Source of the DNA: Naegleria gruberi
Lineage: Eukaryota
NCBI GenBank assembly: GCA_000004985.1
Contig: GG738850.1
Length of the DNA stretch: 64,000 nt
Direction: 5' to 3' (one strand)
Both the position numbers and the translations under genes were made by a program. Of this stretch, positions 3,611 through 60,879 are shown piece after piece. Position 1 is the first letter of the stretch, and each line of letters starts with the position of its first letter. The notes under the pieces were generated by a model. The model was not told the origin of the DNA and ran no database searches. It was given only the letters and a program-made list of their open reading frames with translations.

Positions 3611-3683
3611 GCCCGTCTAGCTCAGTCGGTAGAGCGCAAGGCTCTTAACCTTGTGGTCGTGGGTTCGACCCCCACGGTGGGCG
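3611..3683 (+). tRNA. tRNA-Lys(CTT): tRNA-Lys (anticodon CTT), 73 nt, no intron
   Basis: GCCCGTCTAGCTCAGTCGGTAGAGCGCAAGGCTCTTAACCTTGTGGTCGTGGGTTCGACCCCCACGGTGGGCG. The cloverleaf is canonical with A and B boxes, anticodon loop gCT-CTT-AAc, and T-loop GGTTCGA. A T-run (TTTTGTTTT) lies immediately downstream as a Pol III terminator. Confidence 0.95.
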
Positions 3684-45255: not shown

Positions 45256-46110
45256 TTATTGTCTTGGGGGAACTTGTTGAGCATAACTAGGATAGAATGG
45301 AAAGCCTTGTTGTGGAGGTGGTGGAGTTTGATAGGCTGAAGCAGATGTTTGTGAAATAACACCCTTCACTTTCTTTTGTTGAGGTGGTGGTGATGATGAG
45401 GCATTAGTTTCATCTACTTGTTGATCATTATCATCCTCTTCATCATTATCATATTGATCTTCATCATCTTCATCATCAAGGCTTCTTCTCGAAGATGATG
45501 TTGTAGAATTACCCACAAGACCCATTTGAACAATGGTTGGATTGAGTGGAGGTGCTAATGCTTGTCTAGTTGACTTTTTAGTTGGAGAACGAACAGAGGT
45601 TCTGAATGGTTCCGAAGAGAAGGTTAATAATTTCTGATTATCCATCAATATATGTACATTTAATCTGAACCATTCTACAACATTATCGGATGATGTTTCT
45701 CTAAATCTAAAATCAAGTTTAGCCTTTAAATTACCATGTTTTGATAAATCAAATTCTTCCTTTGTTTTTCCTTTTAAAACTCGTTTTCCAGCACGTTCTC
45801 TTTTTACACAAGTTACTTCTACATTTGTACGATCATCTACTAATTCTAATCTAACAAATAATCCACTTAATTGTGTTTGATTTGGAATACAAACTCTTAA
45901 ACCATATCGTATGGAAGTTAATAAATAATTATCCTCATAAAACTTTTCAAAATAATAATTTTTAGTATCAATGACTACATCATCTGGTGATAATAGATAT
46001 CCACCTCCATTGGGATTTATATTAATATCATGAATTTTTATACTAGAACCTGAATAACAACATGTTGTATAGGCTTTGGCTGATTTTTTACTACTATATC
46101 CTTTACTCAT
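45256..46110 (-). CDS. Hypothetical protein, 284 aa. N-terminal ~170 aa is probably a beta-rich globular domain. C-terminal is acidic and P/Q-rich low complexity.
   Basis: Clean single ORF with local codon bias. No confident domain assignment. Confidence 0.45.
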   Translation of the reverse strand: MSKGYSSKKSAKAYTTCCYSGSSIKIHDININPNGGGYLLSPDDVVIDTKNYYFEKFYEDNYLLTSIRYGLRVCIPNQTQLSGLFVRLELVDDRTNVEVTCVKRERAGKRVLKGKTKEEFDLSKHGNLKAKLDFRFRETSSDNVVEWFRLNVHILMDNQKLLTFSSEPFRTSVRSPTKKSTRQALAPPLNPTIVQMGLVGNSTTSSSRRSLDDEDDEDQYDNDEEDDNDQQVDETNASSSPPPQQKKVKGVISQTSASAYQTPPPPQQGFPFYPSYAQQVPPRQ

Positions 46111-46415
46111 ATTATGTCACAATAATTAGTTTTTTTATCTATGGTACAATGATGACGGAATCAACAGGATCTTGTTGGGTTATTATTGTTGATTGAGATG
46201 CAAGCGGTGCTCTTTTGTTATTTTTTTTAATAATTATTATTTTTGAAATTAAATCTTGTCTGACATATTATGATAATTGAAATAAGAGTCACTCAAAGTC
46301 AATGATGATTAAAGTAACTGATTGAAATTTAGAATAATTTCAAAGCCTTGTTTCTAAATTTAATTAATTGATAATCAATTGATAATTAAATCAATCTAAA
46401 TCAATTTAATAAAAA

Positions 46416-46838
46416 ATGAGTTCAGATCAACAAGTAGCCTATCCAACCATTGTAGAAGAACCATCTGCTACTACTGTAGATGAATCAACACCATCATCAA
46501 CACAATCAACATCTTCATCATCATCGGAACGTTTACCACTCACTCCTCTTAAACCAGCATCAAAAGGTACTCCATTATTAGAAACTGTTAAAAAAGTATT
46601 AGGAAAGGTATCTGTTGTAGTTATTCAACCTATTATTGCTGGCTTTTGTTTTGGTATGTAATCAATTTCATCATCATCATTAATTTAAATTGGAATTTTT
46701 AAAGCCTTTGGACAATTCTTCCTTAGAAAAGTTGTTTATTATACTCATTATGAAAATTTAACTCTCGGACAAACATTAACTAAAGGATGGGAAACTTTCC
46801 TTAAGGATTACATTCACTCAAAAAACAATACTAAATAA
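46416..46838 (+). CDS. Small hydrophobic protein (about 124 aa), 2 exons: 46416..46653, 46705..46838
   Basis: Donor GTATGT at 46654 and acceptor AAAG ending 46704 (51-nt intron) join ...VIQPIIAGFCF-A-FGQFFLRKVVYYTHYENLTLGQTLTKGWETFLKDYIHSKNNTK. Confidence 0.4.
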
Positions 46839-47010
46839 TCATGATCATAATTTAACCACAACACACTCAATTAATACAAAATTAATATATATTTATATAA
46901 TATGATAACATTGTTCTTGTTTAATTGATATTGGATTATTAGGGAAATTATTTACATTATAAAGCCTTTTCTAATTTCTTTTCAAATATTTGAAAAAAAA
47001 TGATTAAATA

Positions 47011-48102
47011 ATGATAAATCATTCTTCTTCGTCAATAGATTCATTCATCGGATCAAGTAATTTATTTAATGATAGGGAGGTTGGTAATGGTGATGATTAT
47101 CATTCGGATTTATATTCTTCATCTTCTTCATCTTTTAATCAACCAATGAATCATTCCAATAATATTCATCGTCATCATAATAATAATAATACAGTTGTTA
47201 ATGATAATAGTAATAATAATTTAATTCAACAAGGAAATGTTTCTCTTTTTAATAATACTAGAAATAATCCATTTGATGAATCATTATATTCAACAACACC
47301 TTCATCATCTTTGAATAATAATAATTACTCAATTAATAATCGATCATCATCCTATCAATCTCCATATTCATCTTCTTATCAACCCTATAATAATTACAAT
47401 AATAATACTCCTTACAATAATAATTATAATAATAATTATAATAATAATAATTACAATAATAGTCTCAATAATTACCATACTAATAATAATCTTAATAATC
47501 TTAATAATCTTAATAATAGATATCATAGACTTGATGAAATGGAAAGAAGATTAATATCAGAAAGACAAACCATTAAAATTCTACAAAAATTATTTAATTG
47601 GATTGAATCAACTTATTTATATAAAACATCAATTGAATATGCCAATCAATGGAGAATTAAAATGTCAAGAAATTCATCCTATGTAATGAATGAAAATTTA
47701 CAAACCAATCCAATTGAATCTAATAGATTTTATTCAAATTTTAATCAATCAAGTGCAATTTATTCAAGACATGAATCTTTTATTAGAAGTATAATTGATT
47801 CAATCATTTCTTTTAAAAGAACTTTATTATCTTCTATAAATGGTATAAATAATAGTAATGGTAATGAAACAACAACATCTTCAATTGAATATCAAGATAA
47901 TCAATTAGCACAAGATATTGCTAATAGAATTGATAGATATACTTTACAAGAAAGTAAATATAATAGATTTAATCAATTTAATAATCAACAACAACAACAA
48001 CAACAACAATATAATATAAATATAATGGATAGAATTAAAAGAGTTATTAATTCAATATTACATATATTTAAAATGATATATTATTATTATATAAAGAAAT
48101 GA
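47011..48102 (+). CDS. Hypothetical N/S/Y-rich low-complexity protein, 363 aa
   Basis: Long ORF with local codon bias. NNYNNN repeats. The C-terminal ~150 aa is less repetitive. Confidence 0.35.
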   Translation: MINHSSSSIDSFIGSSNLFNDREVGNGDDYHSDLYSSSSSSFNQPMNHSNNIHRHHNNNNTVVNDNSNNNLIQQGNVSLFNNTRNNPFDESLYSTTPSSSLNNNNYSINNRSSSYQSPYSSSYQPYNNYNNNTPYNNNYNNNYNNNNYNNSLNNYHTNNNLNNLNNLNNRYHRLDEMERRLISERQTIKILQKLFNWIESTYLYKTSIEYANQWRIKMSRNSSYVMNENLQTNPIESNRFYSNFNQSSAIYSRHESFIRSIIDSIISFKRTLLSSINGINNSNGNETTTSSIEYQDNQLAQDIANRIDRYTLQESKYNRFNQFNNQQQQQQQQYNINIMDRIKRVINSILHIFKMIYYYYIKK

Positions 48103-48162
48103 CATTGATTTTTAAACTCATCAATTATATTTCCATATTTGTAGAATATAATTTTTATAGTA

Positions 48163-48711
48163 ATGAACAACAATTCACAAAAACAAATTGAAAAAAAAAT
48201 GAAACCAATCTATATGGTTATTACAATAATATCAAGTATATTACATTATTTAATGTTTAGACCATATTCATTCATGACAGCATTTAAATTATATTTTATG
48301 GTAATTCATATTGGTGTTTGTTCTTCTATACGTGGAATTAATCATTTATTTAAAAAGCATGATAAAATAGATTTAACTAAAAGGAGTATTTATGAAAAAC
48401 AAGTTGGATGTGCTCATCTATCTTTGGGTATTTTAGGTTTATTATGTTTAGTAATGGGTAATAGTTTTGAATATTTATGTGGAATTGCTATTGTAATGAG
48501 TGTTTTTCATATTGGATGTGGTATTTTACAAGGAATTGATTCTATGAATACTACTACTACTACTACTTCTAATGGAACTAATAGGAAGGATGATTGGTTA
48601 TTACACTTGTTATATAATAGTGTATTTGTACCTTGTTTAACTATTTTAATGGTTTATTCTACTCCAAGTTATTATCAAACTACTTTTGCACCTCCTTCTA
48701 CATTTGAGTGA
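48163..48711 (+). CDS. Hypothetical multi-pass membrane protein, 182 aa
   Basis: Four or more hydrophobic helices, for example IYMVITIISSILHYLMF, LSLGILGLLCLVMG, LCGIAIVMSVFHIGCGIL and VFVPCLTILMVY. Confidence 0.4.
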   Translation: MNNNSQKQIEKKMKPIYMVITIISSILHYLMFRPYSFMTAFKLYFMVIHIGVCSSIRGINHLFKKHDKIDLTKRSIYEKQVGCAHLSLGILGLLCLVMGNSFEYLCGIAIVMSVFHIGCGILQGIDSMNTTTTTTSNGTNRKDDWLLHLLYNSVFVPCLTILMVYSTPSYYQTTFAPPSTFE

Positions 48712-48861
48712 GAGAATGAGATAGAATCTATATATGTTTCTTTACTATTTTTCCTATTATTCTTGATTTCTAATGATGATATCAATCCATTCTTTTCAAT
48801 AAAATGATAATTTGAAAGAAATATAGAGTCATAATTTAGATTTGTCATTCAAAAAAGATTT

Positions 48862-48974
48862 GATGATCTGTAGGATTCGAACCTACGAAGCTTATGCTAA
48901 CGAGTTTGATTGCCGTACAATCCATTGAAACATGAATCAATATTGTGTCGCCTTAACCACTCGGCCAAGATCAC
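48862..48974 (-). tRNA. Intron-containing class-II (Ser-type D-arm) tRNA gene, 113 nt. Anticodon not confidently resolved.
   Basis: Minus-strand sequence is GTGATCT-TG-GCCGAGTGGTTAAGGCG...GTAGG-TTCGAAT-CCTAC-AGATCAT-C. The 7-bp acceptor stem closes perfectly. The D-arm is identical to eukaryotic tRNA-Ser. A variable-arm hairpin AGC-ATAA-GCT lies before the T-arm. An insertion of about 31 nt occupies the anticodon region. A Pol III terminator, CTTTTTTGA, follows the 3' end. Confidence 0.7.
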
Positions 48975-49486
48975 CAAGTTTCAACGCCTAACAAATTGAT
49001 TAATTGATTAAAACTTCAAATTCAGAAGTGCATAGTTTTTTGTTCTATTTTGTTAGAAACGCATTTTGGGCGATTTTCAAATGAATTATTCTTTCAAATC
49101 GATCTGAAGGTATGAACGCACCTCAAAGCATCAGTATGGATTCCTGATTTTATGAACTTTCTATGTTTTCTCAATTAATTGAATCGTTTCTTAAAGAAGT
49201 ATCTGAGGGAAACAACATCATATAGTGCGAAATTCTTTAATGAACACCTTACTATTTTAATGTTAGAAAGAGAATTTTACTCTTGAACACATAAGTCTTA
49301 GCACATATGATAATTACCATGTCTTGGTCAACCAATATTTTTAGAACATATATTTATTGTAAAGATTACGGAAAACATAACCAATAGCTTTCAAACGTTA
49401 CAACATGCCATTTAAATTCGTTTGAAGGATTTGAACCAATCAAAATGAGATGACAAGGTCATTTTCTACAATATCACCAATCTCAT

Positions 49487-50179
49487 ATGGATTCATCTCT
49501 TAAAAAAATGGTTGCAAGGATTTCTGCCAATTTAATACTCCTTCTATTCTTGTGCACGGTTTCAGTTTTGCATGTGGTGTTGGCCTCTCGTCCAAATTGT
49601 GCAACTCCATTGAATACTAAAGGATCTAACACAGTTGACTCTTTTGGCAGACAGACATTGATTAATGATTTTGAAGATCATCATATTCATATTCAGCAAA
49701 CTAAATCTCATCTTGGTGGAAAGAGTGTCAAAGTTTTGAGTTCCTTGTCTACAAATTTTGGGTTTATTTCAAATTTTATTGCTAAAATTTCCTTCAACTC
49801 TTTACCTCCAACTACATTTAATGGAGTTCTTGGACCAACTAATGCAAATATTCCACAAGTTGCATTTACATCAAGTGCTAATGTAAAATGTTATGCATGT
49901 CAAGTGGCATGTGAAAAGGCATGGGCTGGATTGTCTAATACTCCAGTTTTTGAAAGATGTCCACACAAGTACTTTTATTATGGATGTGATAGACCTTGTT
50001 ACTCAACATCATCTGCTTCAGAACAAGATATTGCACAAATGATTGCCATATGTAGAGTTAGAAACAAGTGTGCCTTCAATCATAAAATTATTAAAAAATA
50101 CAGAAAGGGAAGTAATAAGAATATTATCCCAAATGTTATCAAAGGAATTAGATCTGTAAATGAATCAACCAGAGAATAA
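49487..50179 (+). CDS. Hypothetical secreted cysteine-rich protein, 230 aa
   Basis: N-terminal signal-like segment LILLLFLCTVSVLHVVLASR. At least 10 Cys in the C-terminal half (CYACQVACEK...CPHKYFYYGCDRPCY). Confidence 0.45.
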   Translation: MDSSLKKMVARISANLILLLFLCTVSVLHVVLASRPNCATPLNTKGSNTVDSFGRQTLINDFEDHHIHIQQTKSHLGGKSVKVLSSLSTNFGFISNFIAKISFNSLPPTTFNGVLGPTNANIPQVAFTSSANVKCYACQVACEKAWAGLSNTPVFERCPHKYFYYGCDRPCYSTSSASEQDIAQMIAICRVRNKCAFNHKIIKKYRKGSNKNIIPNVIKGIRSVNESTRE

Positions 50180-50311
50180 TAACAAAATATTGTTTGATAA
50201 AGATTAATCTTCCTTTTGCTCTTCTCAATACAAAAACTTCACTTTTTAAATCAGAGAGTTATAGGAAGTTTCAACGAAATGGAACATATCGAAATTCAAA
50301 TCAGATGCTAA

Positions 50312-51535
50312 TCAATTTTTATGAGTGAATATTGAAATATCTGTCAACAAGTTTTGTTTTACAATTGAAAAACCTTTCAACTTTTGTGTAATGAAATGAT
50401 TGTGAGAAGGTAATTGTAAAGCAAGAATTTTGTCTGTTGAAATTACCTCGGTAGGTTCATAATTGGTTTCATCTGTATGAAAAATCAATATTATTCCCTG
50501 TTCTGTTATTGTAAAGAGATTAAAACCCAATGATTGCATGAATTTGAATTCAACTTGATTAAATCTTTTTAAGCTTTCTCTGTGTAATTCATATTCATTG
50601 TGATTGTCAAGATTAATTGTTGAAATTGACTGTTCAGTTAATACAAGTACTTGATATCTCATAGCAGAAAAACCAATATCACAAACTTTTGAATGTGAGT
50701 GAAATATATTTAACTCTCATAACCTACCTCTATATTTTGGATTCGAATAGCTATGTATTACTGGAATATCGTTTCCCATAGAAGGTTCAGATAAAGTTAA
50801 ACCATCATGAAAACAGGTAATGGAAACAGATGCATCTGGGGAATAAACACTCAGAATTGGGTTTCTATCCATCTGATGAAAGTGAACTAATTGTAAAGTA
50901 TTACAATATGGAGTCAACATGAATTTTGAAATAAACTTTCCAGTCCAAAACACAGAAAAGTGACTAAAACAGGAAATTGAGCTCACCAAATGAACATTTC
51001 CGACTTGTATGCTATTATTGTCTATTATTTTTGGTAAAAAGTCAACCAGATCAAACATTTCACTAAGAATGAATTCACTTTTTAAATCCAATTTTGCAAC
51101 CTTTCCACTCTCAAATATCACAAGCATCATTTCTTCTCCTAAAACATGTACTCTAATGATATCTCCACCACCTAAACTACTACCTCTACTACCACCACCA
51201 CAACTAGTGATGATAGGTTCTAAATAGTGTGAAAGATTCTTCTTAACTTTACCACTGAGTGAATCAATGATGGAAAGTTGATTTTTACTCCAACAAGCAA
51301 TGACACTTGTTTGTCCCATAATTATCTCAACAAGACCCAATACGGCTTGTGAAAGTACCTTTTCAACATGTTCCTTTCTATCCTCAACTACCACAACAGT
51401 CTGGGAATTATTCCGATAGGAGATTTTAGAAACATTTCCATCTTGATGTCCAACATAAATTGAATAGGCTCTTGTTGATGCCTCTGTTGTGTTGTTTGTG
51501 ACTAGAAAACTGGTGATGGGAGCGTGTTCTAACAT
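50312..51535 (-). CDS. Hypothetical protein. The two ORF-track pieces (51535..50717 and 50662..50312) are probably one gene. The junction is not resolved.
   Basis: The upstream ORF ends at AGAG|GTAGGT, a good donor. The downstream piece begins after CTGCTATGAG. The phases do not close with these sites, so a micro-exon or alternative site is needed. Confidence 0.3.
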
Positions 51536-52073
51536 TTCATTTTTTTAAATAATTTATTAGTGAAGAATATTTAGTTTTTACAATAAAGTTCTAAACATGT
51601 TCCTGTGAATGATGAAACAAAATGAGATTTTTCACTTGTGCATTATTTTCTTTTGACGTCAATTATATATGTTTGTAAAGTTAAAGACAGAAAGTCCATA
51701 CTCTCAAATTGTCCTTGTTCTTCAGTCTATGTACCATTTCATCACATATTGAGCTTTTTTCACATTATCTTGCTATTTGTGATTTGATGTTTAGTGCCAA
51801 TAATGTGAAAGGATATGTAGATAAGAACGGAAAAAAGGTTGATATTTTGATTTCCATTCACTTCAATGTTATTCATTGTCGATGAAGGTAAAGGTTTTGT
51901 CCAAGAACCTGATTCTTCATATGTTGTCTTTCCAGGTTGGCAACAATTAGCTTGCTCACCAGGAATTGGAGATAATAATTTCTAAAGTATGTAACGATAG
52001 TTTCAAACCTTAATTCCAATCCGCTTTGTTGTTCTTTTAAATATTATTAATGGATATGATACCTATTAAGGCA

Positions 52074-53804
52074 TTATTCATTGCACGTATCGTAAAATCT
52101 GGAAGCACTGAATGTTCCAATGGAAGCTACACAATCATGATCATCATAAAATTCCTGGATAACCTTGTGATTAGCACCGTGTATACTACCATCATCTCGT
52201 GGGTCAAGATTTGTCTCAACAACTACATATTTCAAACATTTTGATAATTGACTCAATTTGGAAGTAAACTCACACATATTGATCCAACCATTAGTGTACC
52301 TTGAATTATAATCAAATAAGATATCAATATTGTGTAGCTGTTTGAGAAATTCTATCTGATGGAACAAGTATTCACTACTTGAAAACCCAGACAAGACTAA
52401 ATATTTCAAATTCGGTAATACCGTTGGTGATACGAGATTTTCTAATATTTGTCGAATTCTTTTTTCTGCTTCTGCCCTTCGTTCGTTATCATAGTAATAA
52501 TCTTCATACCCAAAACTAATTCTCAAATATTTCACTCCTGGAAATGTGCATCCATTAAAAACCAATCCTTGCTGTTTTTTACTCCAATCAAAACAATCAA
52601 TCGATAGAAATCTAATACTGGTTGGAAACTCAAAATTCTTTAGAGGATCCAAATGGAAAACATTTACAAAACTCAAGAGTATTGATCCTGACAATCTTTC
52701 CCTTAGTTCCTTCTCTTCAATAGGTTCAGGCAAATTTGTATTTGACTGCTCACTAGTAGTAGTAGTAGTAGTAGCAGATCTAGTATTGAACCATCCACCA
52801 TACTTGAAAAGTAATAATAATGGTGATGCCAATACAAAGTATGAACTCCAATACGACGACAATAGGGCTAGTAATACACAACAAATATAAATGATACCAT
52901 TATTGTTATGAATTTTTGTTTTTGTTTCAGGAATAATCTTACCATTCGATTCTTTTTTTGAAAATTCTTGATTATTGGTGTTATTTTTCACAAATTGATA
53001 CCAACCACTCGATGATTCAATTCTAATTCCTATTTTCCTTTCCATTAGTTTTTTTCCAACCAATATCTTTACCTGAGACATGTAAGACTTGTTAGGCCAG
53101 TATTCCATATATTTTTCTGGTAGTAGATCATTTTCATGAGTTTGATACTCGCTTGAAACCTCTGAGCTCATAAATTTGTACATTTCAAGAGATAGAATTA
53201 GGGATTGAGTTAAAAACATGTCGAATGAAGATCCACTAGGCTTGTAATACCTTTCATAATCATCAAAGGAAATATTAAATCGGTTCAATCTTGATTGAAT
53301 CATTTCTGTACAAGTACTTTCATCACGATAAATATCCATATTCAAAGGATTGTCCAATGTAGTTGTTAAATTATTGTAATCTACTGCTTTTGATTTTCCT
53401 CTTTCTATTCCTTGAATAATGGCTTGAATTCTATAAGATTCATCCATCTCTATAGCATTCAAATCTCCTGTACATAAATTCAATTGATCAAAAGTTCTAG
53501 TCCTAATCCAATACGAAACCTTCTGATAAAAAACAAATCCATTCAACCAAAACCTTTCAAAAGTCTCATCACTATTTCCCATAATTAAATTCCTCATCTT
53601 TTGATTAATATTCGCAAATTGTTTGAGTGATTTAATATTTTCAAATGGTGGTATGAATGTTTTAACTTGTGCAACAAGTCTAATATCAACCCTATTGAAC
53701 CAATTCAAATCACCAACCAAAAACATTACAATCTCTCCGATAATCTCCTTCGGCAATTGCTCAAAGTGACTGTGGCAAATTTCCTCCGTGTGATTTGAAA
53801 GCAT
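52074..53804 (-). CDS. F-box-like / leucine-rich-repeat protein with an internal hydrophobic segment, 576 aa
   Basis: N-terminal LPKEIIGEIVMFLVGDL is F-box-like. The C-terminal third is RNI-like LRR (LPNLKYLVLSGFSSSEYLF, LKQLHNIDILFD). Confidence 0.5.
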   Translation of the reverse strand: MLSNHTEEICHSHFEQLPKEIIGEIVMFLVGDLNWFNRVDIRLVAQVKTFIPPFENIKSLKQFANINQKMRNLIMGNSDETFERFWLNGFVFYQKVSYWIRTRTFDQLNLCTGDLNAIEMDESYRIQAIIQGIERGKSKAVDYNNLTTTLDNPLNMDIYRDESTCTEMIQSRLNRFNISFDDYERYYKPSGSSFDMFLTQSLILSLEMYKFMSSEVSSEYQTHENDLLPEKYMEYWPNKSYMSQVKILVGKKLMERKIGIRIESSSGWYQFVKNNTNNQEFSKKESNGKIIPETKTKIHNNNGIIYICCVLLALLSSYWSSYFVLASPLLLLFKYGGWFNTRSATTTTTTSEQSNTNLPEPIEEKELRERLSGSILLSFVNVFHLDPLKNFEFPTSIRFLSIDCFDWSKKQQGLVFNGCTFPGVKYLRISFGYEDYYYDNERRAEAEKRIRQILENLVSPTVLPNLKYLVLSGFSSSEYLFHQIEFLKQLHNIDILFDYNSRYTNGWINMCEFTSKLSQLSKCLKYVVVETNLDPRDDGSIHGANHKVIQEFYDDHDCVASIGTFSASRFYDTCNE

Positions 53805-53952
53805 TTTTTTTTGAATTTTATTTTGAAGTGTGAAATCTTAAATGTAGCTTTCAAGAAATTCAAGATTTTTATGAAAGTCAATATCGAAAAAGCATTTGGC
53901 AAAGGATATAGAAAGAGAGTTTACTTTACAAATTTCTACAAGTTTTATGAAA

Positions 53953-54945
53953 TTATTGTTTTGGATTAATTTCGAATAAATCTCTTTCACTTGTTCCCAT
54001 TACAAATACTTTTTCAAATCCCTTATTATATATTGTATAAAGAAATTCCTTCACACATGCATCTGAATTAATCATTTCCTTACTCAATCCAATTTTTTCC
54101 ATTACTTCCTTAATTATATTCTTATCTGAATTGGTAAATCTTTTTATCCAACTTCCTTCATCTGTTTCTTGGTTTTGGCTTAAAATTTCAGTTTCAACAA
54201 GTGTAACAGTTCCTTCATCCATTGTAATTTTGTTTGATCTAAGTAAATCTCCATTTCCATTTCCGTAATCACATCTATAAACTGTGAAAAATAATTTGGT
54301 CAATTGGGTAGTTCCTTGAATGTTTGCAATAGTAAAGTTAATTTCTACATCTGATTGATCGTAGGAATATGTGGAAATATCGAGTTTTTCAATAAAAATG
54401 AAAGGTGAAACGAGACGAATCATTTCTGAAATTAATTCATCATTGAATTCATTGAGGATAGCAGGATTATAAACATAGGTTTGTTCATATTTGTATTGGT
54501 CCCACTCTGTTAAATGATCAATTGTATTTCTCGCAAGGAATGAGTTTCGAATGCAATTCAACATGAAACTATTCTTGTCATCCTTATTTGGAAATTCAAT
54601 TTCAATCTTTTCATCATTGCCTCTTGCTTTCATTGAATTCTCCAAATTTTTAATCATGAATTGATTCCAAAAATCAGAAGCATTCACAAAACCATCATTC
54701 CAATCTTTGCAAACTAATCTTAACGAAACTAAATATGAAAGCCTTTGCCAACTTGTTTCTGCAATAGATTCTTCTGTTTCTTCCTCAATTGGTTCTTTGT
54801 CGGAATATTCTTCTTCAGCACCATCGAGGTTCACAGGTTTTTTTGGAGTTTTTTCTTCCACAAGGAAAGGAATAACTTCATATAAAAACACACCACTGGA
54901 TAACAGTAATTGGATTGCTGACATTTTTTTTGATTGTCCAACCAA
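53953..54945 (-). CDS. F-box-like protein, 330 aa
   Basis: WQRLSYLVSLRLVCKDWNDGF matches the C-terminal half of the F-box consensus (L..VCK.W). The remainder is unassigned. Confidence 0.4.
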   Translation of the reverse strand: MVGQSKKMSAIQLLLSSGVFLYEVIPFLVEEKTPKKPVNLDGAEEEYSDKEPIEEETEESIAETSWQRLSYLVSLRLVCKDWNDGFVNASDFWNQFMIKNLENSMKARGNDEKIEIEFPNKDDKNSFMLNCIRNSFLARNTIDHLTEWDQYKYEQTYVYNPAILNEFNDELISEMIRLVSPFIFIEKLDISTYSYDQSDVEINFTIANIQGTTQLTKLFFTVYRCDYGNGNGDLLRSNKITMDEGTVTLVETEILSQNQETDEGSWIKRFTNSDKNIIKEVMEKIGLSKEMINSDACVKEFLYTIYNKGFEKVFVMGTSERDLFEINPKQ

Positions 54946-55468
54946 ATGTCCAACAAATCAAAAGGCCAAAAGATTCTCAACAAGTTCACAAAATGAATTT
55001 TAAAAAGTTCATTGATAAGCAATTTTGACATTATTTAATATTTTCGAAGGAGGAATTGACAAGAATATTGAAGACTCATCTTTCACTTTCTGTCAATGGC
55101 AGCCATGATATAACTATCAAGATTCATTTCTGAAAAACAATAAAAGCAGATCAATTTCCTTTATAACACTGTCTCAGATTGGAGTAACCCCAAAACAGTG
55201 ATTATAAAAAATAAATCTTAATAAAAAATCCTCGATGAGTAATCACAGTTATTCCGTTTCTTTGCTTTCGGGAAGTGTGAGTAATTTATCATCCAATAAT
55301 ATAAGTGCTAAATTTGAAGGATTTTGTGGAGAGTTATTTAGGTTAGTTTCTAAGGAGAATAGTTTAGACTTTTTTTCCGACTTGTACGTTTCTTACAGGT
55401 TAAATTCTTACAACCATTTTTGAATAAGCTACAAGGTCATAATTTCTGCTGTTGGTGATTGCATTAAC

Positions 55469-56715
55469 TTGATGAAATATATCTTTGAAAAAACAGGATA
55501 TATTTATCCAATTAATCTACCTAGTATTCATAATGCTGGAACTTATTATAGAACTAGTTTAACAAGAGTTTTGCCAAAACCTTGTTATCTATATCTTCAA
55601 AGAAAAGAAGAGATTCCTTATTTGGAACTAAGCAAGATTAAAGACTTTTATGAGCAATTGATTTTACAAACAAGCGAAGAATCAAGAATGAAGGAATTAA
55701 AATTCAAATCTGAAACTTTTCAAAAAATTTTCCCAACTTTATTATTTGGAGATGAAATAGTGATTGAAAATAATTTTGTAGATATGTTATTTAACATTAC
55801 AACAATTAATGATACAACTGTTAAGGTTAATCAAGTTAAGTGCAAAGAAGACACAAAACAACTATTCAAAACATGTTCTGTTCTGTGTCAAAGAGCATGA
55901 TATTATTACTGAAAAGTATCTGTTCAGAGCTCAAACTCTCCCTTCACACTGATAGCTCATTGTTGAGAGATGTGATTCCTTTACCTCTAATGGAAGAGAT
56001 TCGTTTCAAGATCTTGGTAAGTATTTAAGTTGAATTATTATCTTCAAGTATTATCCAGAGAAATCATGTCAACAAAGTTTACTTGGTTGAAAAGAAAGTC
56101 AATGGCAAATGGAAAAAAAAGGAAATAATTAAAGTTTGTAAAAGTGAGGCTGCATTGCAAAAAGAGATGTTATATGGACATTCATCATTTACTAATGCTA
56201 ATCACAAACTTATTGGTATTCCATACTATGAGTCGATTAAAAAACTAAAGTCAAACGAAAGAGAAGCTCTTTTGAATATGGCCATTGAACAAGATTTGCT
56301 CCACATTTCTAAACTTGTTCATTGCGATTTAAAACCAGACCATATTGTTATAGATCCATTGAGAGATACTGGATTTAGATTATTGGATTTTGAGTTTGTT
56401 GTTACGGAAGGTGATGAGGTCATTGGCTACACAAAAGGATATCATCCTCCTGAATATGATTGTCTTGAAAATCAACAATATGCAATTGCATCAAGGAAAT
56501 CAGATGTTTTTTCACTTGGTTTGTGTATGCTCCACTTTATGAACAATGAATTCATTCCCAATAGATTAGAAATACCAGATTATTTAAAGGTAATTGAGGA
56601 CATACTTTTGAGGGATGTATTAACTCAAATGCTTGAATTGGATTGCTCAAGGAGATTATCAGATGCTTCAGATATTGTTACAATGCTAAAAGATGATATC
56701 AATCAATTTCCTTAA
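55469..56715 (+). CDS. Protein-kinase-like gene, multi-exon, with a degenerate N-lobe and no Gly-rich loop. The last two exons are about 55930..56028 and 56069..56715.
   Basis: Donor GTAAGT after ...EEIRFKIL at about 56021 and acceptor CCAG ending 56068 join to RNHVNKVYLVEKKVNGKWKKKEIIKVCK (beta3-like VCK). HCDLKPDHIV replaces HRD. LLDFE replaces DFG. HPPE occupies the APE position. Upstream exon structure is unresolved. Confidence 0.45.
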
Positions 56716-56824
56716 TAAAGAGGTTCGACTTTGCAAAGTTGTTTTTTGATTTTTTCAATATTTCCTTCTCCCTTAATTGAATTGATTGTAAATTTATGGA
56801 TGAGGATTTTCCACTCTTGTTTCA

Positions 56825-57700
56825 TCAATATAAGCAAAGTCTTTTTAATTTTTTCATTCCACTTATCAATTTTTCTCCTTTATCACCAATTCGATTATGA
56901 CGAATATCAAGATCTGTTAATTGTTTCATTTCACTTATGTATTTGGCCCCTTCGTCACCAATTCTATTGTAAAATATAGAAAGTTCTGTTAATTGCTTCA
57001 TTTCACTGATAAACTTGGCTCCTTCATCACCAATTTCATTGTGACCAATAGAAAGTTCTGTTAATTGTTTCATTCCACTTATCAATTTGGCTCCTTCATC
57101 ACCAATTCCATTACCATAAATATAAAGACATGTTAATTGTTTCATTTCACTAATGTATTTAACTCCTTTGACACCTATTTGATTGTCACCAACATGAAGT
57201 AATGTTAACTGTTTCATTTTACTTATCAATTTGGCTCCTTCATCACCAATTCTATTTCTATTAATATCCAGTGCTATCAATTGTTTCAGTTTACATAGGT
57301 ATTTAACTCCTTTTGCACCAATTTGATTCTTAGAAATACCAAGTGATATTAATTGCTTCATTTCACTTATCAATTTGGTTCCTTCATCACCAATTCGATT
57401 TGTTGGCACAAAAAGTGCTACCAGTTGTTTCATTTCACTTATGAATTTTACATTGTCAGAGTCCAACAAGTTTTCAGAAACATTAACGTTAACAATACAA
57501 TTCATAAATTGACTTTTCATTAACAATTCAATTCTATGCTCTGTAAATTCTTTTTTAAATTCAAGACAAAGATATGAACGTTCCTTGATCACATTAAACC
57601 ATTGTTTTGAAATTAAGGAACAAGTATTCAAAATAAACCACGAATTATCAATCATGGAAATTATTTCAAAACAAACATCATCTGAAAATATATTATTCTC
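56825..57700 (-). CDS. F-box / RNI-like LRR protein with eight near-identical 24-aa (72-nt) tandem repeats. The start lies upstream of the annotated Met.
   Basis: Repeat unit is ISEMKQLTxLxIxxNxIGDEGAKx, eight copies. The in-frame upstream extension FSDDVCFEIISMIDNSWFILNTCSLISKQWFNVI matches the F-box consensus. Confidence 0.6.
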   Translation of the reverse strand, partial: ENNIFSDDVCFEIISMIDNSWFILNTCSLISKQWFNVIKERSYLCLEFKKEFTEHRIELLMKSQFMNCIVNVNVSENLLDSDNVKFISEMKQLVALFVPTNRIGDEGTKLISEMKQLISLGISKNQIGAKGVKYLCKLKQLIALDINRNRIGDEGAKLISKMKQLTLLHVGDNQIGVKGVKYISEMKQLTCLYIYGNGIGDEGAKLISGMKQLTELSIGHNEIGDEGAKFISEMKQLTELSIFYNRIGDEGAKYISEMKQLTDLDIRHNRIGDKGEKLISGMKKLKRLCLY

Positions 57701-58844
57701 TACTAATCATTGATTAAGCATTCAAGAAAATATATACCCACCTTCTTGTTGTCTTATCTCCATGGTGAAATTAGTACAAATATTTCCCATGATGATGATG
57801 ATGATTAATATGAAAGTGGGCTGATTAGTACTGAATGTTGGCTAGGGCAGTAGGTAGGTTTTTTCTTGACTTGTTGCAGTGTTGGCCCAACAGCACGAAG
57901 TATTTAACCTCAACAGAAGAATCTCAATCCGTGTTCTTTTTTCTCTCCGATTGTTCCATTCCAGATATTCCTCTTCAAACAGTGCTGGCAAAACTGTAGT
58001 TAGACCTATTGAAAAAACAGCTCAACAAAAATCAATACACAAACACCAAACCTTGACCCTGGCATTCAGATCTGTAAGCCTTCTAACAATTGTTTGATTT
58101 TAAATTTTGTACAGACAATATCAAGAGAAGTTATCTCCAGCTAAATTGATCACAAAATTGTTGCAGTTTCAATTTTGAGCTTGTTTTAATTTTATAAACC
58201 ACAGTTTGATATTCATTCCCATAGAGTTCATTATCACCACTACGAAAACAATCGCTATTCCATTGGGAATTACATTAGTTTCTAATAACAAGATGCTTAG
58301 ACCTAATTGTTAACATTTCTATCGTTTGGGATACGCTATAGTTCCATTGATGGATCGGTTACACTTAAGGTAATGTGTTGGTATGAAATGTTGTCATGCC
58401 AATTGATGAACTGCTGCAATTCTTTTAACTATTAAATTTTAATGTTTAACAGCTTGGACACCAATCAACGTTTATATGATGAGGGCAGACGAATCTTCTT
58501 TGTAATCCTCCAGAAACATCATTTCACATACAATTATAATGTTTCCGCTCCCAACTACATTTTTGAATGCTTGCTAAGTTGGGAAAACAGAGTTCTAAAA
58601 TAAATTTGACTAAACAGTTTAAACATAAAGTGAAAGTAACCAATCTCTATAATAGTTTCACCAATAATTTTATAATGACTTCCAGGATTATCCATTTCCT
58701 TTACGAAAATTCATGTGATTCCATAGAAGGAAACCTTAGAACCAAGTAATCCCAAAATTAAAGGGTAACACCACTTTCATTTGAGATTCTCCACAACGTT
58801 ACTTCTAAATTTCAAGAAAACTAATCTCAAAAAAACAGTAGAAA

Positions 58845-59603
58845 ATGAATAGAGAGAAATACATACAATCATTTGCTTGTGGTCAACCGAAAGTTTTCCA
58901 ATTGCCAAGTATTAAACAACTGTTGTATGGAGACTTGTCATCATGTAGAACCAATCATAATACGAAACAAGAGGAAACTAATGGTTATCATCCAGTCATG
59001 CAAGGTCAGACATGTCACCAACCTTTCTCTACATGTTCAACTAAATGCATGCCACTCCAATTACATGAAACTTCTCCACAAGTAACTTATTCGAAACCAC
59101 AGCTGGAAGTTAAACGACTCGAACATCAAGTAAGAATTATGGAATCTCTTGTGAAGAAACAAGCAAAGGTAATTGAAGATTTGGAAAATGAAAAGAAGAG
59201 AAAGTTGAAGGAAATTGAAAGACAACTCGAAAGTCAACCAAAGAAACTAAAGCAAACTAAATCAAATTCCTTCATATTTAAAACATGCTTATTAGAAAAC
59301 AAAGATAATTCAGAAGAAGAAACGTCAATCTTGGACGATTTAAATAATCATACGGTAACTTGGAAAAACGAGACTTTCGTATTAATTGATGCCTTTAAAA
59401 ACCGAAACAAAATCCTCAATTATTTCATTCCACTCTATCAAAGTCAATTCCCAAATAAGAAATGTAAATTAGTTCTTTCAAGTGAAGAATATAGAAAGCT
59501 ATTTAAGGAAAATTCACATCGGAGTCAATCAGAGAGGAAACACGCTTGGAGAATTTCAATTTTCACTTTGGATTTCTATAATTTCGTAAAGAATCAAATG
59601 TAA
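58845..59603 (+). CDS. Hypothetical coiled-coil protein, 252 aa
   Basis: Heptad-like segment EVKRLEHQVRIMESLVKKQAKVIEDLENEKKRKLKEIERQLESQ. ATG is preceded by an A-rich leader. Confidence 0.35.
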   Translation: MNREKYIQSFACGQPKVFQLPSIKQLLYGDLSSCRTNHNTKQEETNGYHPVMQGQTCHQPFSTCSTKCMPLQLHETSPQVTYSKPQLEVKRLEHQVRIMESLVKKQAKVIEDLENEKKRKLKEIERQLESQPKKLKQTKSNSFIFKTCLLENKDNSEEETSILDDLNNHTVTWKNETFVLIDAFKNRNKILNYFIPLYQSQFPNKKCKLVLSSEEYRKLFKENSHRSQSERKHAWRISIFTLDFYNFVKNQM

Positions 59604-59766
59604 ATAATATTGCTAATGTAACTGTTTTTTGTAATAAAAGAGAATACCTTGTTTATGATATTTTGTTGGAAGAATTCATGTTCCAGAGCTTTAACTGGAT
59701 CTATCTCTTTCATTCTCGACAACCATTTTAGAAATCAAATCCATAGCATCTATATTGGTTGGATCA

Positions 59767-60620
59767 TTACTGCACTGCAACATTTTTACAAAATTCCAGA
59801 TCAATAATTTTCAAAACTGAATCAGTGCAATCGAATATGATATTATCAGGTTTCAAATTATTGTGAGTTACAAGATTTCTTCTCATATAGACACATGCAT
59901 TCAAGAGTTGCTTCATATAACTTCTAACCTCATTGATATCTGATGGAAGATACCCTGCTCCCTTCTTATATTCCATAATGAGAACTATTTCATCATTGGC
60001 TAAACTGAAATTGAAATCTAGAATTTCAAGAATATTTGGATGAGAAAACTTTCTATGAAATTCAATCTCACTAATTACATCTCTATAACTACGCAACTGA
60101 TAATTCTTCTTCACCAAATCAGTCTTTCCATCTGAAAACTGGTTTGGATTTGCTGCTATCCTTCTTACAATTGGATATGCATATTGCAGGACAGAAACAA
60201 TACTGCAATCATTTTCTTTCTCAAACTCTAAATGTCTCTTTGCAATGGCTGACCACTTTTCAATCTTATCAACTGTAATATCAAATCTGAAACTGTCAAT
60301 TTACTCCCAGAAAGGAACCAGTAATGGAATGGTAAGGATTTTTTCTCATCCTCTATTAGAAAGTACATGGAAAATAAGATGAATGGATGCAATTTTGAAC
60401 TATATGAATTTACACGAACTTCTTGTGGAGAGTCAATAGAAACTTTGTGATATTCAATCTTTGAAAGAAGTGTTTTTGTAAAAGCATTATTATTTGGAAA
60501 GGATTCAGCTATGGAGAATTTGAAAAAATTTGCTTTGTAATCTCCATGATAACAAATGATTAAGGAATCGGTTGAGAGACCGAAAGAATTCTTCTCAATA
60601 GAATTGTTAAATTCAAACAA
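59767..60620 (-). pseudogene. Truncated pseudokinase (kinase N-lobe plus catalytic loop only). The frame is open upstream of the listed TTG start and possibly joins ORF 60228..60620.
   Basis: ITVDKIEKWSAIAK (beta3), HPNILEIL, IMEYKKG (hinge). HNNLKPDN replaces HRDLKPDN, so the catalytic Asp is lost. DLE replaces DFG. A stop follows directly after DLEFCKNVAVQ. There is no activation segment or C-lobe. Confidence 0.45.
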
Positions 60621-60807
60621 ACACTTGCATTTTTTTTAGAGTTTGTGAGTATAATTTGAGACTAAGATAGGGTTTCATATGTTCTTTGAACATGAAAGAA
60701 CAGTAACTACAGTAACTATGTTGTAATGGAGCTATATGGTGTCTTTACAAATTACCTACCCCCCTGTGTCAACAAAAGGCAAATAAAATAACAGCATGTA
60801 AAAAGTA

Positions 60808-60879
60808 TAGCAAATCTAGGTTTCGATCCTAGGACCTATGGGTTATGAGCCCATCGCGCTTCCGCTGCGCCAATTTGCT
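60808..60879 (-). tRNA. tRNAi-Met: Initiator tRNA-Met (anticodon CAT), 72 nt
   Basis: Minus-strand sequence is AGCAAATTGGCGCAGCGGAAGCGCGATGGGCTCATAACCCATAGGTCCTAGGATCGAAACCTAGATTTGCTA. It has the A1:U72 pair, the three G-C pairs in the anticodon stem, and the T-loop GATCGAAAC (A54/A60) that is diagnostic of eukaryotic initiator tRNA. A T5 run lies downstream. Confidence 0.9.

What the first reader, a model, noticed from the sequence alone, without database searches (positions are those of the whole stretch)
52074..60620. Block of F-box/LRR genes interleaved with kinase-like and pseudokinase genes
Within about 8.5 kb there are three F-box-like genes, two with RNI-type LRRs, and two kinase-derived genes. 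All have atypical catalytic motifs: HCD plus DFE at 56083-56715, and HNN plus DLE and truncated at 59767-60117. Together with the receptor kinase at the window start, this gives three kinase-family members in 64 kb. This looks like a lineage-specific, fast-evolving signalling or ubiquitin-adaptor region, not housekeeping genes. It is flanked by ORF-free stretches (57656-58844) that contain coding-like debris.
Basis: partly seen in the sequence, partly recalled or inferred. Interest (0 to 1): 0.55.

Follow-up and report, generated by a model that had tools for sequence, protein, structure and literature searches.

The report
Unrelated Naegleria genes and two dead kinases
This stretch of the amoeba Naegleria gruberi holds neighbouring but unrelated lineage-specific genes (one real F-box/LRR gene, one probable F-box gene, two orphans) and two protein-kinase genes broken by frameshifts and deletions; it is an ordinary gene-turnover region, not a duplicated signalling cluster.

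Summary
The window is Naegleria gruberi nuclear DNA: its ORFs are identical to NCBI N. gruberi proteins on a 707,703-bp scaffold.

- 56825-57790(-) is a true F-box plus ribonuclease-inhibitor-type LRR gene. It has one 60-nt intron and belongs to a dispersed N. gruberi family of at least 19 paralogs.
- 53953-54924(-) is a probable divergent F-box gene with three dispersed paralogs.
- 52074-53804(-) shows no detectable F-box or LRR.
- Both kinase-derived sequences and their motifs (HCD/DFE; HNN/DLE) are real.

The interpretation largely fails.
- All-vs-all comparison finds no local duplication.
- The "kinase-like" ORF is the 3' part of one gene, 55235-56715(+). It has two short introns and a 5-bp tandem duplication that shifts the frame. 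A 98%-identical strain shares that lesion.
- The two strains also each lack about 150 bp that the other keeps.
- The "truncated pseudokinase" plus ORF 60228-60620 is a second decayed gene, with a frameshift and a missing C-lobe. Two relatives carry independent lesions.
- HCD is the normal DYRK motif. DFE and His-for-Asn are conserved in an intact 503-aa homolog.
- The stretch 57791-58844 is plain intergenic DNA.

Verdict: ordinary lineage-specific genes plus two kinase pseudogenes. Low interest.

The parts
52074..53804 (-). Intact 576-aa orphan gene with a central hydrophobic segment (about residues 303-335). Its N-terminus 'LPKEIIGEIVMFL' only resembles F-box helix 1.
   Evidence: One continuous ORF. 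It is colinear over 98% with P0001 (589 aa, 55% identity, metagenome contig L001), and these are the only 2 hits in 5.8e9 proteins. No Pfam family at E<=10 in either member. The AF2 model is unusable (pLDDT 35.7).
53953..54924 (-). Intact 323-aa gene. It is a probable divergent F-box protein with a 37-aa acidic insert between 'YEVIPFL' and 'LRLVCKDW'.
   Evidence: Identical to the first 280 residues of P0002. Sub-threshold Pfam matches to F-box-like and F-box (E 0.05-0.09). N. gruberi paralogs P0126, P0139 and P0149 lie on other scaffolds. UniRef names P0149 'F-box domain-containing protein'. The family profile has no PDB sequence match.
55235..56715 (+). Disrupted kinase-like gene. Parts:
- exon 55235-55383
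- 45-nt intron 55384-55428
- exon 55429-55878
- frameshifting 5-bp tandem duplication TGTTC/TGTTC at 55874-55883
- exon continues to 56016
- 42-nt intron 56017-56058, which contains the TAA
- exon 56059-56715, the kinase-like domain with HCDLKPDH and DFE
   Evidence: P0144 (503 aa, one intact ORF in L003) aligns colinearly across frames 2 and 1. Removing the two introns and one repeat copy gives an uninterrupted 462-codon ORF. The alignment with P0144, P0151, P0145 and P0147 shows a conserved 'KTGYIYPI..PS..NAG..YR.S.T.VLP' domain, an 'IRFK' motif and HxDxKPxH + DFEF. L002 (98% DNA identity) shares the duplication. NCBI holds only the 182-aa C-terminal piece, P0003.
56825..57790 (-). F-box + RI-type LRR gene (301 aa). 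Exon 1 is 57742-57790 (MGNICTNFTMEIRQQE), the 60-nt intron is 57682-57741 (GTGGGT...TTTCAG), and exon 2 is 56825-57681. The F-box is about 57600-57681. The LRR array is 56845-57448.
   Evidence: LRR_6 x7. 72-bp tandem period. At least 19 N. gruberi paralogs at 37-67% identity, none on a 707,703-bp contig, and no 100% hit, so the gene is unannotated. The family N-terminus hits Pfam F-box-like in 11 of 15 members. The family profile's only two PDB hits are the F-boxes of FBXO42 and FBXL2. AF2 pLDDT is 90 with three N-terminal helices.
57791..58844 (.). Divergent intergenic region between the F-box/LRR gene and NAEGRDRAFT_63351. No gene remnant was detected.
   Evidence: No ORF above 75 aa. Codon scores range from -0.15 to -0.42. 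No tblastn match to any retrieved protein. No Rfam family or tRNA.
58845..59603 (+). Intact 252-aa gene NAEGRDRAFT_63351 (XP_002681376). It has a coiled coil plus a conserved C-terminal domain of about 95 aa and unknown function. It is neither F-box nor kinase.
   Evidence: 100% match to P0124. About 17 further cluster representatives include N. gruberi P0127 and P0129 and N. lovaniensis P0130. No Pfam domain. The only PDB matches are to the coiled coil.
59640..60635 (-). Decayed kinase gene. The N-terminal domain ORF is 60228-60620. A frame break lies at about 60285-60300. The kinase N-lobe to DLE is 59767-60300 (HNNLKPDN, DLE). A possible out-of-frame subdomain XI remnant lies at about 59640-59766. 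Subdomains VIII-X are absent.
   Evidence: P0148 (L004) reads through the N-terminal domain and kinase N-lobe in one frame. The window needs frame -3 then -2 with overlapping coordinates and is 13 nt shorter. Pkinase profile positions 40-148 only. The repaired tail matches only CDK9 subdomain XI (E 1.4). The L004 copy has an in-frame stop. The L005 copy lacks about 430 bp.
60808..60879 (-). tRNA-Met (CAT), just outside the finding. It bounds the block.
   Evidence: Rfam 64 bits. ARAGORN.

Best explanation
This is an ordinary, gene-dense piece of the Naegleria gruberi genome. Six unrelated, Naegleria-restricted genes happen to lie side by side.

Four are intact:
- a 576-aa orphan with a hydrophobic segment;
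- a probable divergent F-box protein;
- an F-box/RI-type-LRR protein, presumably an SCF substrate adaptor (inferred);
- a coiled-coil protein with an uncharacterised C-terminal domain.

Two are kinase genes in the course of decay.
- One belongs to a small Naegleria family of atypical kinases. The family has an N-terminal 'GYIYP' domain, no glycine-rich loop, an HxDxKPxH catalytic loop and DFE. In this genome the copy has lost its 5' region and carries a frameshifting 5-bp duplication.
- The other has a frameshift between its N-terminal domain and its kinase domain, and it has lost most of the C-lobe.

The apparent interleaving of F-box/LRR genes with pseudokinases reflects how common these superfamilies are in Naegleria. 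It also reflects reading ORF fragments of broken genes as separate small genes. It does not reflect local duplication or functional clustering.
For: Shown:
- Identity with N. gruberi proteins.
- No paralogy inside the window.
- All named paralogs lie on other scaffolds.
- The kinase-like gene is colinear with the intact P0144. It needs one frame change at a TGTTC-TGTTC duplication and two GT-AG introns of 45 and 42 nt. After these three edits the 462-codon ORF is clean.
- Strain L002 (97-98% identical) shares the duplication, lacks 154 bp of exon, and keeps 152 bp that the window has lost.
- pN/pS between the two strains is 0.60-0.73, from 11 non-synonymous and 4 synonymous changes.
- The second kinase gene has a frame break relative to P0148 and a 13-nt length difference. 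Only Pkinase profile positions 40-148 are present.
- Its relatives are independently damaged: an in-frame stop in L004 and a deletion of about 430 bp in L005.
- The F-box of the LRR family is established at family level and the LRR fold is established.

Inferred:
- SCF adaptor function of the F-box/LRR protein.
- Pseudogene status, since there are no expression data.
Against: - Divergence between the window and L002 is lower in the kinase-like exons (1.4-1.7%) than in flanking non-coding DNA (3.7-6.7%). Some constraint may therefore remain.
- A 179-nt GT-AG interval (55880-56058) would also join the two frames. That product would skip the frameshifted exon.
- The net length difference of L002 across this interval is 153 nt, a multiple of three.
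- Substitution counts are small.
- Metagenome contigs may contain assembly errors.
- The N. gruberi reference could carry one null allele of a heterozygous locus.
- No transcript or protein data were available.
Confidence: 0.75

Rival explanations
1. This is a fast-evolving, functional signalling or ubiquitin-adaptor cluster made by local duplication, in which short atypical kinases or pseudokinases work with neighbouring F-box/LRR adaptors.
For: - All genes are lineage-restricted.
- One true F-box/LRR gene and one probable F-box gene are present.
- Three kinase-derived sequences lie in 64 kb.
- The atypical motifs DFE and His-for-Asn are conserved in the intact homolog P0144.
Against: - No sequence similarity among the block's genes.
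- Paralogs are dispersed over other scaffolds.
- Both kinase sequences are fragments of larger genes with frame breaks and deletions.
- The 576-aa gene has no detectable F-box or LRR.
Confidence: 0.07
2. The kinase-like gene 55235-56715 is still functional. One route is a 179-nt intron (55880-56058) that removes the frameshifted segment. The other is two separate products, an N-terminal 'GYIYP' domain protein and a C-terminal kinase-like domain.
For: - GT at 55880 and AG at 56058 join frame 2 to frame 1 exactly (read directly from the sequence).
- The net length difference of L002 across the interval is 153 nt, so the relative frame is kept.
- Exon divergence is lower than intergenic divergence.
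- K, E, HxD and the DFx Asp are all retained.
Against: - The skipped segment is homologous to coding sequence in P0144, P0145, P0147 and P0151, including the conserved 'IRFK' motif.
- The equivalent interval in L002 would be only about 26 nt, implausibly short. The median intron is 80 bp in N. lovaniensis (PMC6125883).
- The 5' region of about 180 aa seen in L003 and P0151 is missing.
- The upstream exon differs between the two strains by a 152-bp indel.
- pN/pS is 0.6-0.7.
Confidence: 0.15
3. The frame breaks are sequencing or assembly artefacts, and both kinase genes are intact in the living organism.
For: The reference is a draft assembly, and the relatives used for comparison are short metagenome contigs.
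Against: - The 5-bp duplication is present in two independent assemblies, the window and L002.
- The second kinase gene lacks about 100 residues of C-lobe, which is not a single-base problem.
- Three independent copies carry three different lesions.
Confidence: 0.03

Closest known systems
FBXL-type F-box/LRR substrate adaptors of SCF ubiquitin ligases (e.g. human FBXL2, FBXL17, Skp2)
   Same: The gene at 56825-57790 has an N-terminal F-box of about 40 aa followed by a curved solenoid of 24-residue LRR_6 repeats. FBXL2 and FBXL17 are among the best fold matches. FBXL2 and FBXO42 F-boxes are the only PDB sequence hits of the family's N-terminal profile.
   Different: - The canonical Leu-Pro at the start of the F-box is 'FSDD' in the family. 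In the spliced window copy it is replaced by exon 1.
- The window copy alone does not reach Pfam thresholds.
- Skp1 binding is untested.
- The gene belongs to a Naegleria-specific expansion, not an orthologue of any animal FBXL.
Lineage-specific F-box gene expansions (plants, nematodes). This comparison is from general knowledge.
   Same: There are many divergent paralogs within one genome (at least 19 N. gruberi hits). Orthology across species is poor.
   Different: Copies here are dispersed, not tandem: no second family member lies in the 64-kb window. No test of positive selection was possible.
DYRK family (CMGC) protein kinases
   Same: DYRK2 is the best PDB match of the kinase-like domain (E 9e-6). 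The two share the 'HCDLKP' catalytic loop.
   Different: - There is no glycine-rich loop: 'QRNHVNKV' stands in its place.
- The Mg-binding Asn is replaced by His (HCDLKPDH).
- DFG is replaced by DFE.
- There is a different N-terminal 'GYIYP' domain.
- Similarity is only 28.8 bits.
- The window copy is frameshifted.
Unitary or decaying pseudogenes of protein kinases
   Same: Frame breaks, internal deletions, loss of essential subdomains, and independent lesions in related genomes.
   Different: Residual sequence constraint cannot be excluded for the first gene. Expression is unknown.
Bacterial LRR effectors that mimic host proteins (Legionella LegL1, Ralstonia RipG/GALA)
   Same: They are the top structural matches of the LRR domain. 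Legionellaceae, Wolbachia and alphaproteobacterial proteins appear among the sequence hits at 36-46% identity.
   Different: Those are secreted bacterial proteins. The window gene is a nuclear, intron-containing amoeba gene.

Membership tests
F-box proteins (PF00646 / PF12937): gene 56825-57790 | An N-terminal domain of about 40-50 aa that matches the F-box profile. | tested here: met
   11 of 15 family N-termini hit PF12937 (best E 1.4e-6) and 10 of 15 hit PF00646. The family profile hits only the FBXO42 and FBXL2 F-boxes in the PDB. The window copy alone scores E 0.14-0.29, but it is 57-72% identical to several of the closest paralogs in this segment.
F-box proteins: gene 56825-57790 | Binding to Skp1 and assembly into an SCF ligase. 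| not testable with these tools
   No interaction data. The AF2 N-terminal helices have only pLDDT 42-66.
F-box proteins: gene 53953-54924 | A match to the F-box profile. | tested here: inconclusive
   PF12937 E 0.05-0.086 and PF00646 E 0.084, all below the cut-offs. Paralog P0149 scores PF00646 E 0.009 (16.3 bits against a cut-off of 20.5) and UniRef names it an F-box protein. hhalign against the LRR family's F-box gives probability 1%.
F-box proteins: gene 52074-53804 | A match to the F-box profile. | tested here: not met
   No Pfam family at E<=10 for the window protein, its N-terminus, or ortholog P0001. hhalign probability is 11% over 19 columns.
RI/RNI-type leucine-rich repeats (LRR_6) | Tandem repeats of about 24-28 residues that match LRR_6 and form a horseshoe solenoid. 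| tested here: met
   This applies to 56825-57655 only: LRR_6 E 5.8e-36 with 7 repeats, pLDDT 90, and ribonuclease inhibitor, NLR and FBXL fold hits. The 576-aa ORF has no LRR family hit, and its AF2 model is too poor to judge.
Eukaryotic protein kinase superfamily: 55235-56715 | A kinase fold with the β3 Lys, αC Glu, catalytic-loop Asp and DFG Asp. | tested here: met
   Pkinase E 2e-10. The alignment shows K ('IIKVCK'), E ('QKEM'), HCD and the D of DFE.
Catalytically competent protein kinase: 55235-56715 | A glycine-rich loop, the catalytic-loop Asn, an intact DFG, and an uninterrupted reading frame. | tested here: not met
   No Gly-rich loop, Asn replaced by His, DFG replaced by DFE. The frame is broken by a 5-bp duplication. 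Activity of the intact family member P0144 is untested.
Pseudokinase (an expressed, folded, inactive kinase domain): 59767-60117 | A complete kinase fold that lacks catalytic residues. | tested here: not met
   Only profile positions 40-148 of 263 are present. There is a frame break upstream and the C-lobe is absent. This fits a pseudogene, not a pseudokinase.
Tandemly duplicated gene cluster | Detectable paralogy between neighbouring genes. | tested here: not met
   All-vs-all blastp gave no hit at E<=1e-3. The best is a 28-residue kinase-loop match at E 0.06. tblastn of all retrieved family proteins finds no second copy in the window.

The most novel reading that the evidence does not exclude
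The kinase-like gene may belong to a previously undescribed kinase family restricted to Naegleria or Heterolobosea. The family has a conserved N-terminal 'KTGYIYPI..PS..NAG..YR' domain, a glycine-loop-less N-lobe, an HxDxKPxH catalytic loop (His in place of the metal-binding Asn) and DFE in place of DFG. An intact 503-aa member (P0144) and an N. gruberi paralog (P0151) exist. On this reading the window copy has been caught in mid-decay: it shares one lesion with a sister strain, and each strain has its own 150-bp deletion. The neighbouring 252-aa gene would likewise carry an undescribed conserved domain.
Probability: 0.45. Interest if true: 0.35.

Novelty: new member of a known kind. Interest (0 to 1): 0.2.

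Why it matters
The value is mainly curatorial. For the published N. gruberi genome the analysis:
- corrects one chimeric gene model;
- merges ORF fragments into two kinase pseudogenes;
- adds an unannotated F-box/LRR gene with its intron.

It also shows that neighbouring F-box, LRR and kinase motifs in Naegleria need not mean a functional or duplicated cluster.

Of modest biological interest, it gives a small, datable example of gene decay between near-identical Naegleria strains. It also points to an atypical kinase family (HxDxKPxH/DFE with a GYIYP domain) and an uncharacterised conserved C-terminal domain family that could be studied.

Tried and rejected
- Exact look-ups of window ORFs and of the NCBI models P0002 and P0003 in the contig index found nothing. 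The official gene table for the locus could therefore not be read.
- The AF2 model of the 576-aa ORF, built from a 2-sequence alignment, gave pLDDT 35.7. It was not used for fold search.
- A profile of the 330-aa family had no PDB match.
- A profile of the 252-aa family matched only coiled coils.
- Pfam did not recognise the putative subdomain XI tail of the decayed kinase. The only support is a CDK9 match at E 1.4, so that remnant is marked as tentative.
- The codon-usage score did not separate real from spurious ORFs well. The conserved 576-aa gene scores only 0.08. I used it only to note that the intergenic ORFs score negative.
- Synteny with relatives could not be assessed beyond single genes because the related contigs are 1-4 kb. 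L001, L003 and L005 share only the query gene with the window.
- Literature searches found no description of these families. They supplied only the kinase count and intron-length context.
- I considered and rejected a 32-nt intron at 56017-56048 (wrong phase), a 15-nt 'intron' after DLE at about 59780, and a 12-nt one at about 60293-60304. The last two are too short.

Full report
**Source.** The window is AT-rich (about 22-33% G+C). It is nuclear DNA of Naegleria gruberi.
- The NCBI 'predicted protein [Naegleria gruberi]' P0002 is identical in blocks to window ORFs.
- P0003 is 100% identical to 56167-56712.
- P0124 (XP_002681376, NAEGRDRAFT_63351) is 100% identical to 58845-59603.
- All three sit on a 707,703-bp scaffold.

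**Checking the observation.**
- Pfam finds seven LRR_6 repeats in 56825-57655(-).
- It finds partial protein-kinase matches in 56083-56715(+) (profile positions 112-212) and in 59767-60117(-) (positions 40-148). It finds no F-box in any ORF at E<=1.
- A third kinase fragment lies at 2778-3464.
- N. gruberi has 265 predicted kinases (PMC9928731). With a genome of about 41 Mb (my recollection), about 0.4 kinases are expected per 64 kb. Three is a mild, post-hoc excess.

**No local duplication.**
- All-vs-all blastp of every stop-to-stop ORF of at least 40 aa in the window gives no pair at E<=1e-3 other than a reverse-frame LRR artefact.
- Relaxed to E<=5, the only match between genes of the block is 28 residues of kinase catalytic loop at E 0.06.
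- tblastn of all 123 proteins retrieved up to that point finds no second LRR-family copy in the window.
- Profile-profile comparison of the three 'F-box-like' N-termini gives probabilities of 1% and 11%.

**Gene 1, 52074-53804(-).**
- It is a continuous 576-codon ORF.
- The 5.8-billion-protein search returns only the chimeric N. gruberi model and P0001. P0001 is a 589-aa protein from metagenome contig L001, 55% identical over 98% of the length.
- L001 shares no flanking gene with the window.
- Neither protein matches any Pfam family at E<=10.
- The 'LPKEIIGEIVMFL' start resembles F-box helix 1 only at motif level.
- AF2 with two sequences failed (pLDDT 35.7).
- This is an intact orphan gene. 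The F-box and LRR labels are unsupported.

**Gene 2, 53953-54924(-).**
- The exhaustive representative search finds three N. gruberi paralogs on other scaffolds, identified: P0126 (53%), P0139 (39%) and P0149 (25%). It also finds a metagenome fragment, P0142 (60%).
- The window protein gives sub-threshold F-box-like and F-box matches (E 0.05-0.09).
- P0149 has an uninterrupted 'LLLCQDILSLIIMFDEDPFEILMSFRSVCKTWHEW'. It scores E 0.009 and UniRef names it an F-box domain protein.
- The window copy carries a 37-residue acidic insertion inside the motif.
- Verdict: a probable divergent F-box protein in a small dispersed family.

**Gene 3, 55235-56715(+).**
- The 228-aa stop-to-stop ORF has no relative in the word-indexed search apart from its own 182-aa NCBI model.
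- The upstream ORF 55424-55897 led to P0144, a 503-aa protein encoded by one intact ORF on contig L003.
- P0144 aligns colinearly with the window. Residues 3-174 align in frame 2 (55457-55891). Residues 168-440 align in frame 1 (55876-56703). The TAA at 56026 falls in an alignment gap.
- The frame change coincides with a perfect tandem duplication, TGTTC-TGTTC, at 55874-55883.
- The gap corresponds to a 42-nt GTAAGT...CCAG intron (56017-56058).
- A second intron of 45 nt (GTACGT...TAAG, 55384-55428) removes the in-frame TGA. It yields 'DFFSDF|YKVIIS', which matches 'DFFADFLKVIM' of the N. gruberi paralog P0151.
- Removing both introns and one repeat copy produces a clean 462-codon ORF.
- The family shares a 'KTGYIYPI..PS..NAG..YR.S.T.VLP' domain, an 'IRFK' motif and a kinase-like domain. 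In that domain the β3 Lys, αC Glu, HxD Asp and DFx Asp are kept. The glycine-rich loop is absent, the Mg-binding Asn is His, and DFG is DFE. All of this also holds in the intact P0144 ('HGDIKPQH', 'DFEF').
- DYRK2 is the best PDB match, and 'HCDLKPEN' is its normal loop. So 'HCD' is not aberrant, while DFE and His are family traits.

**Gene 3 in a sister strain.**
- Contig L002 is 97-98% identical to window 54737-56631.
- It shares the 5-bp duplication.
- It lacks 154 bp (55885-56038) of exon sequence.
- It retains 152 bp that the window has lost at 55301/55302.
- The retained stretch reads '...LALLAFYMKEQKELKPDLG...'. It resembles the upstream domain of L003 and P0151 (a by-eye comparison).
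- About 180 N-terminal residues present in L003 and P0151 have no counterpart in the window.
- pN/pS between the strains is 0.60-0.73, from 11 non-synonymous and 4 synonymous changes.
- These lesions mark a decaying gene. However, exon divergence (1.4-1.7%) is lower than flanking non-coding divergence (3.7-6.7%), so residual function cannot be excluded.

**Gene 4, 56825-57790(-).**
- The stop-to-stop ORF begins 'ENNIFSDDVCFEIISMIDNSWFILNTCSLISKQWFNVI'.
- At least 19 N. gruberi paralogs (37-67% identity, none on a 707,703-bp contig) share this N-terminus. So do N. lovaniensis and metagenome relatives.
- No 100% hit exists, so the gene is unannotated.
- Scanned individually, 11 of 15 family N-termini match PF12937 (best E 1.4e-6) and 10 of 15 match PF00646.
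- The family profile's only PDB hits are the F-boxes of FBXO42 and FBXL2.
- A 60-nt GTGGGT...TTTCAG intron joins an ATG exon (57742-57790) to the main exon, giving 301 codons.
- The AF2 model has pLDDT 90. Foldseek returns RipG4, LegL1, ribonuclease inhibitor, FBXL2, FBXL17 and NLR LRRs.
- This is a genuine F-box/RI-type-LRR gene and probably an SCF adaptor (inferred).

**Interval 57791-58844.**
- There is no ORF above 75 aa.
- Codon scores are negative.
- There is no similarity to any retrieved protein.
- There is no RNA family or tRNA.
- It is a divergent intergenic region. 'Coding-like debris' is not supported.

**Gene 5, 58845-59603(+).**
- This is NAEGRDRAFT_63351.
- It has a coiled coil and a strongly conserved C-terminal domain of about 95 aa. 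About 17 cluster representatives from N. gruberi and N. lovaniensis share that domain.
- There is no Pfam match and no PDB match beyond the coiled coil.
- It is unrelated to the finding's theme.

**Gene 6, about 59640-60635(-).**
- P0148 (contig L004) reads in one frame through a domain homologous to ORF 60228-60620 and on into the kinase N-lobe.
- The window needs frame -3 and then frame -2, with overlapping coordinates. It is 13 nt shorter over the interval.
- After 'IIDLEF' the frame stops.
- Only Pkinase profile positions 40-148 are present.
- Downstream, in two other frames, 'DAMDLISKMVVENE' and 'IDPVKALEHEFFQQ' resemble subdomain XI. The only PDB match is CDK9 residues 287-317 at E 1.4, so this is tentative.
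- The L004 copy has an in-frame stop in the N-lobe.
- The L005 copy (77-79% DNA identity) lacks about 430 bp.
- Three lineages carry three different lesions. This is a pseudogene, not a pseudokinase.

**Conclusion.**
- The block is a run of unrelated, Naegleria-restricted genes.
- It contains one true F-box/LRR gene, one probable F-box gene, two orphans of unknown function and two decaying kinase genes.
- Members of the multigene families involved are dispersed through the genome, not duplicated locally.
- The reading as a functional, locally expanding signalling/ubiquitin cluster is not supported.
- 'Lineage-specific and fast-turnover' is supported.
- Naegleria genomes are reported to have a small core (25% of the pangenome) and many species-specific genes (PMC9928731). 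They also show limited synteny between species (PMC6125883). The locus is typical in both respects.

Noticed in passing
window 45259-54924 (-): The NCBI/JGI model P0002 (755 aa) joins pieces of four unrelated ORFs: 54924-54085, 53585-52944, 50842-50726 and 46074-45259. It spans about 9.7 kb and is a chimeric gene model. The metagenome ortholog P0001 supports 52074-53804 as a gene of its own.
   Followed up: partly
window 58845-59603 (+): NAEGRDRAFT_63351 belongs to an uncharacterised Naegleria family of about 17 cluster representatives. Members have a coiled coil and a highly conserved C-terminal domain of about 95 aa ('VxWKGETYVLVNAFKNRTQILNYYVPLYQ...KKHAWRVSxFTIDFYNFVKN'). There is no Pfam or PDB match to that domain. 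Two N. gruberi paralogs lie four accession numbers apart on one 275-kb scaffold.
   Followed up: partly
window 19282-23505 (+): A 1,407-aa ORF combines PH domains (residues about 293-590) with a complete C-terminal actin domain (Pfam Actin E 5.8e-102). This is an unusual PH-actin fusion.
   Followed up: no
window 56825-57790 (-); loci: After Naegleria paralogs and unnamed metagenome proteins, named non-Naegleria relatives of the F-box/LRR family include Legionellaceae, Wolbachia and alphaproteobacterial MAG proteins (36-46% identity). The best fold matches are the bacterial effectors RipG4 and LegL1. This is consistent with amoeba-to-symbiont transfer or mimicry of this LRR type.
   Followed up: no
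window 60808-60879 (-), 3611-3683 (+), 48862-48974 (-): tRNA-Met(CAT), tRNA-Lys(CTT) and a third tRNA-like element. The third is 113 nt long (possibly intron-containing), scores 37 bits in Rfam and is not called by ARAGORN.
   Followed up: no
L001-L005 (ENA assembly ERZ929261): One public metagenome assembly contains contigs from at least three Naegleria-like genotypes related to this locus. Their similarity levels are about 98% DNA identity, about 70-79% DNA identity and about 50% protein identity. This is a useful comparison set for N. gruberi annotation.
   Followed up: partly
window 57742-57790 (-): The predicted first exon of the F-box/LRR gene encodes 'MGNICT...'. This fits the N-myristoylation (Gly2, Thr6) plus Cys palmitoylation pattern, from my own knowledge of the motif. 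It was not tested and is not shared by the paralogs.
   Followed up: no
window 40699-42312 (+): A 537-aa ORF with an RWP-RK domain (E 5.2e-19). This is a transcription-factor type best known from plants and algae.
   Followed up: no
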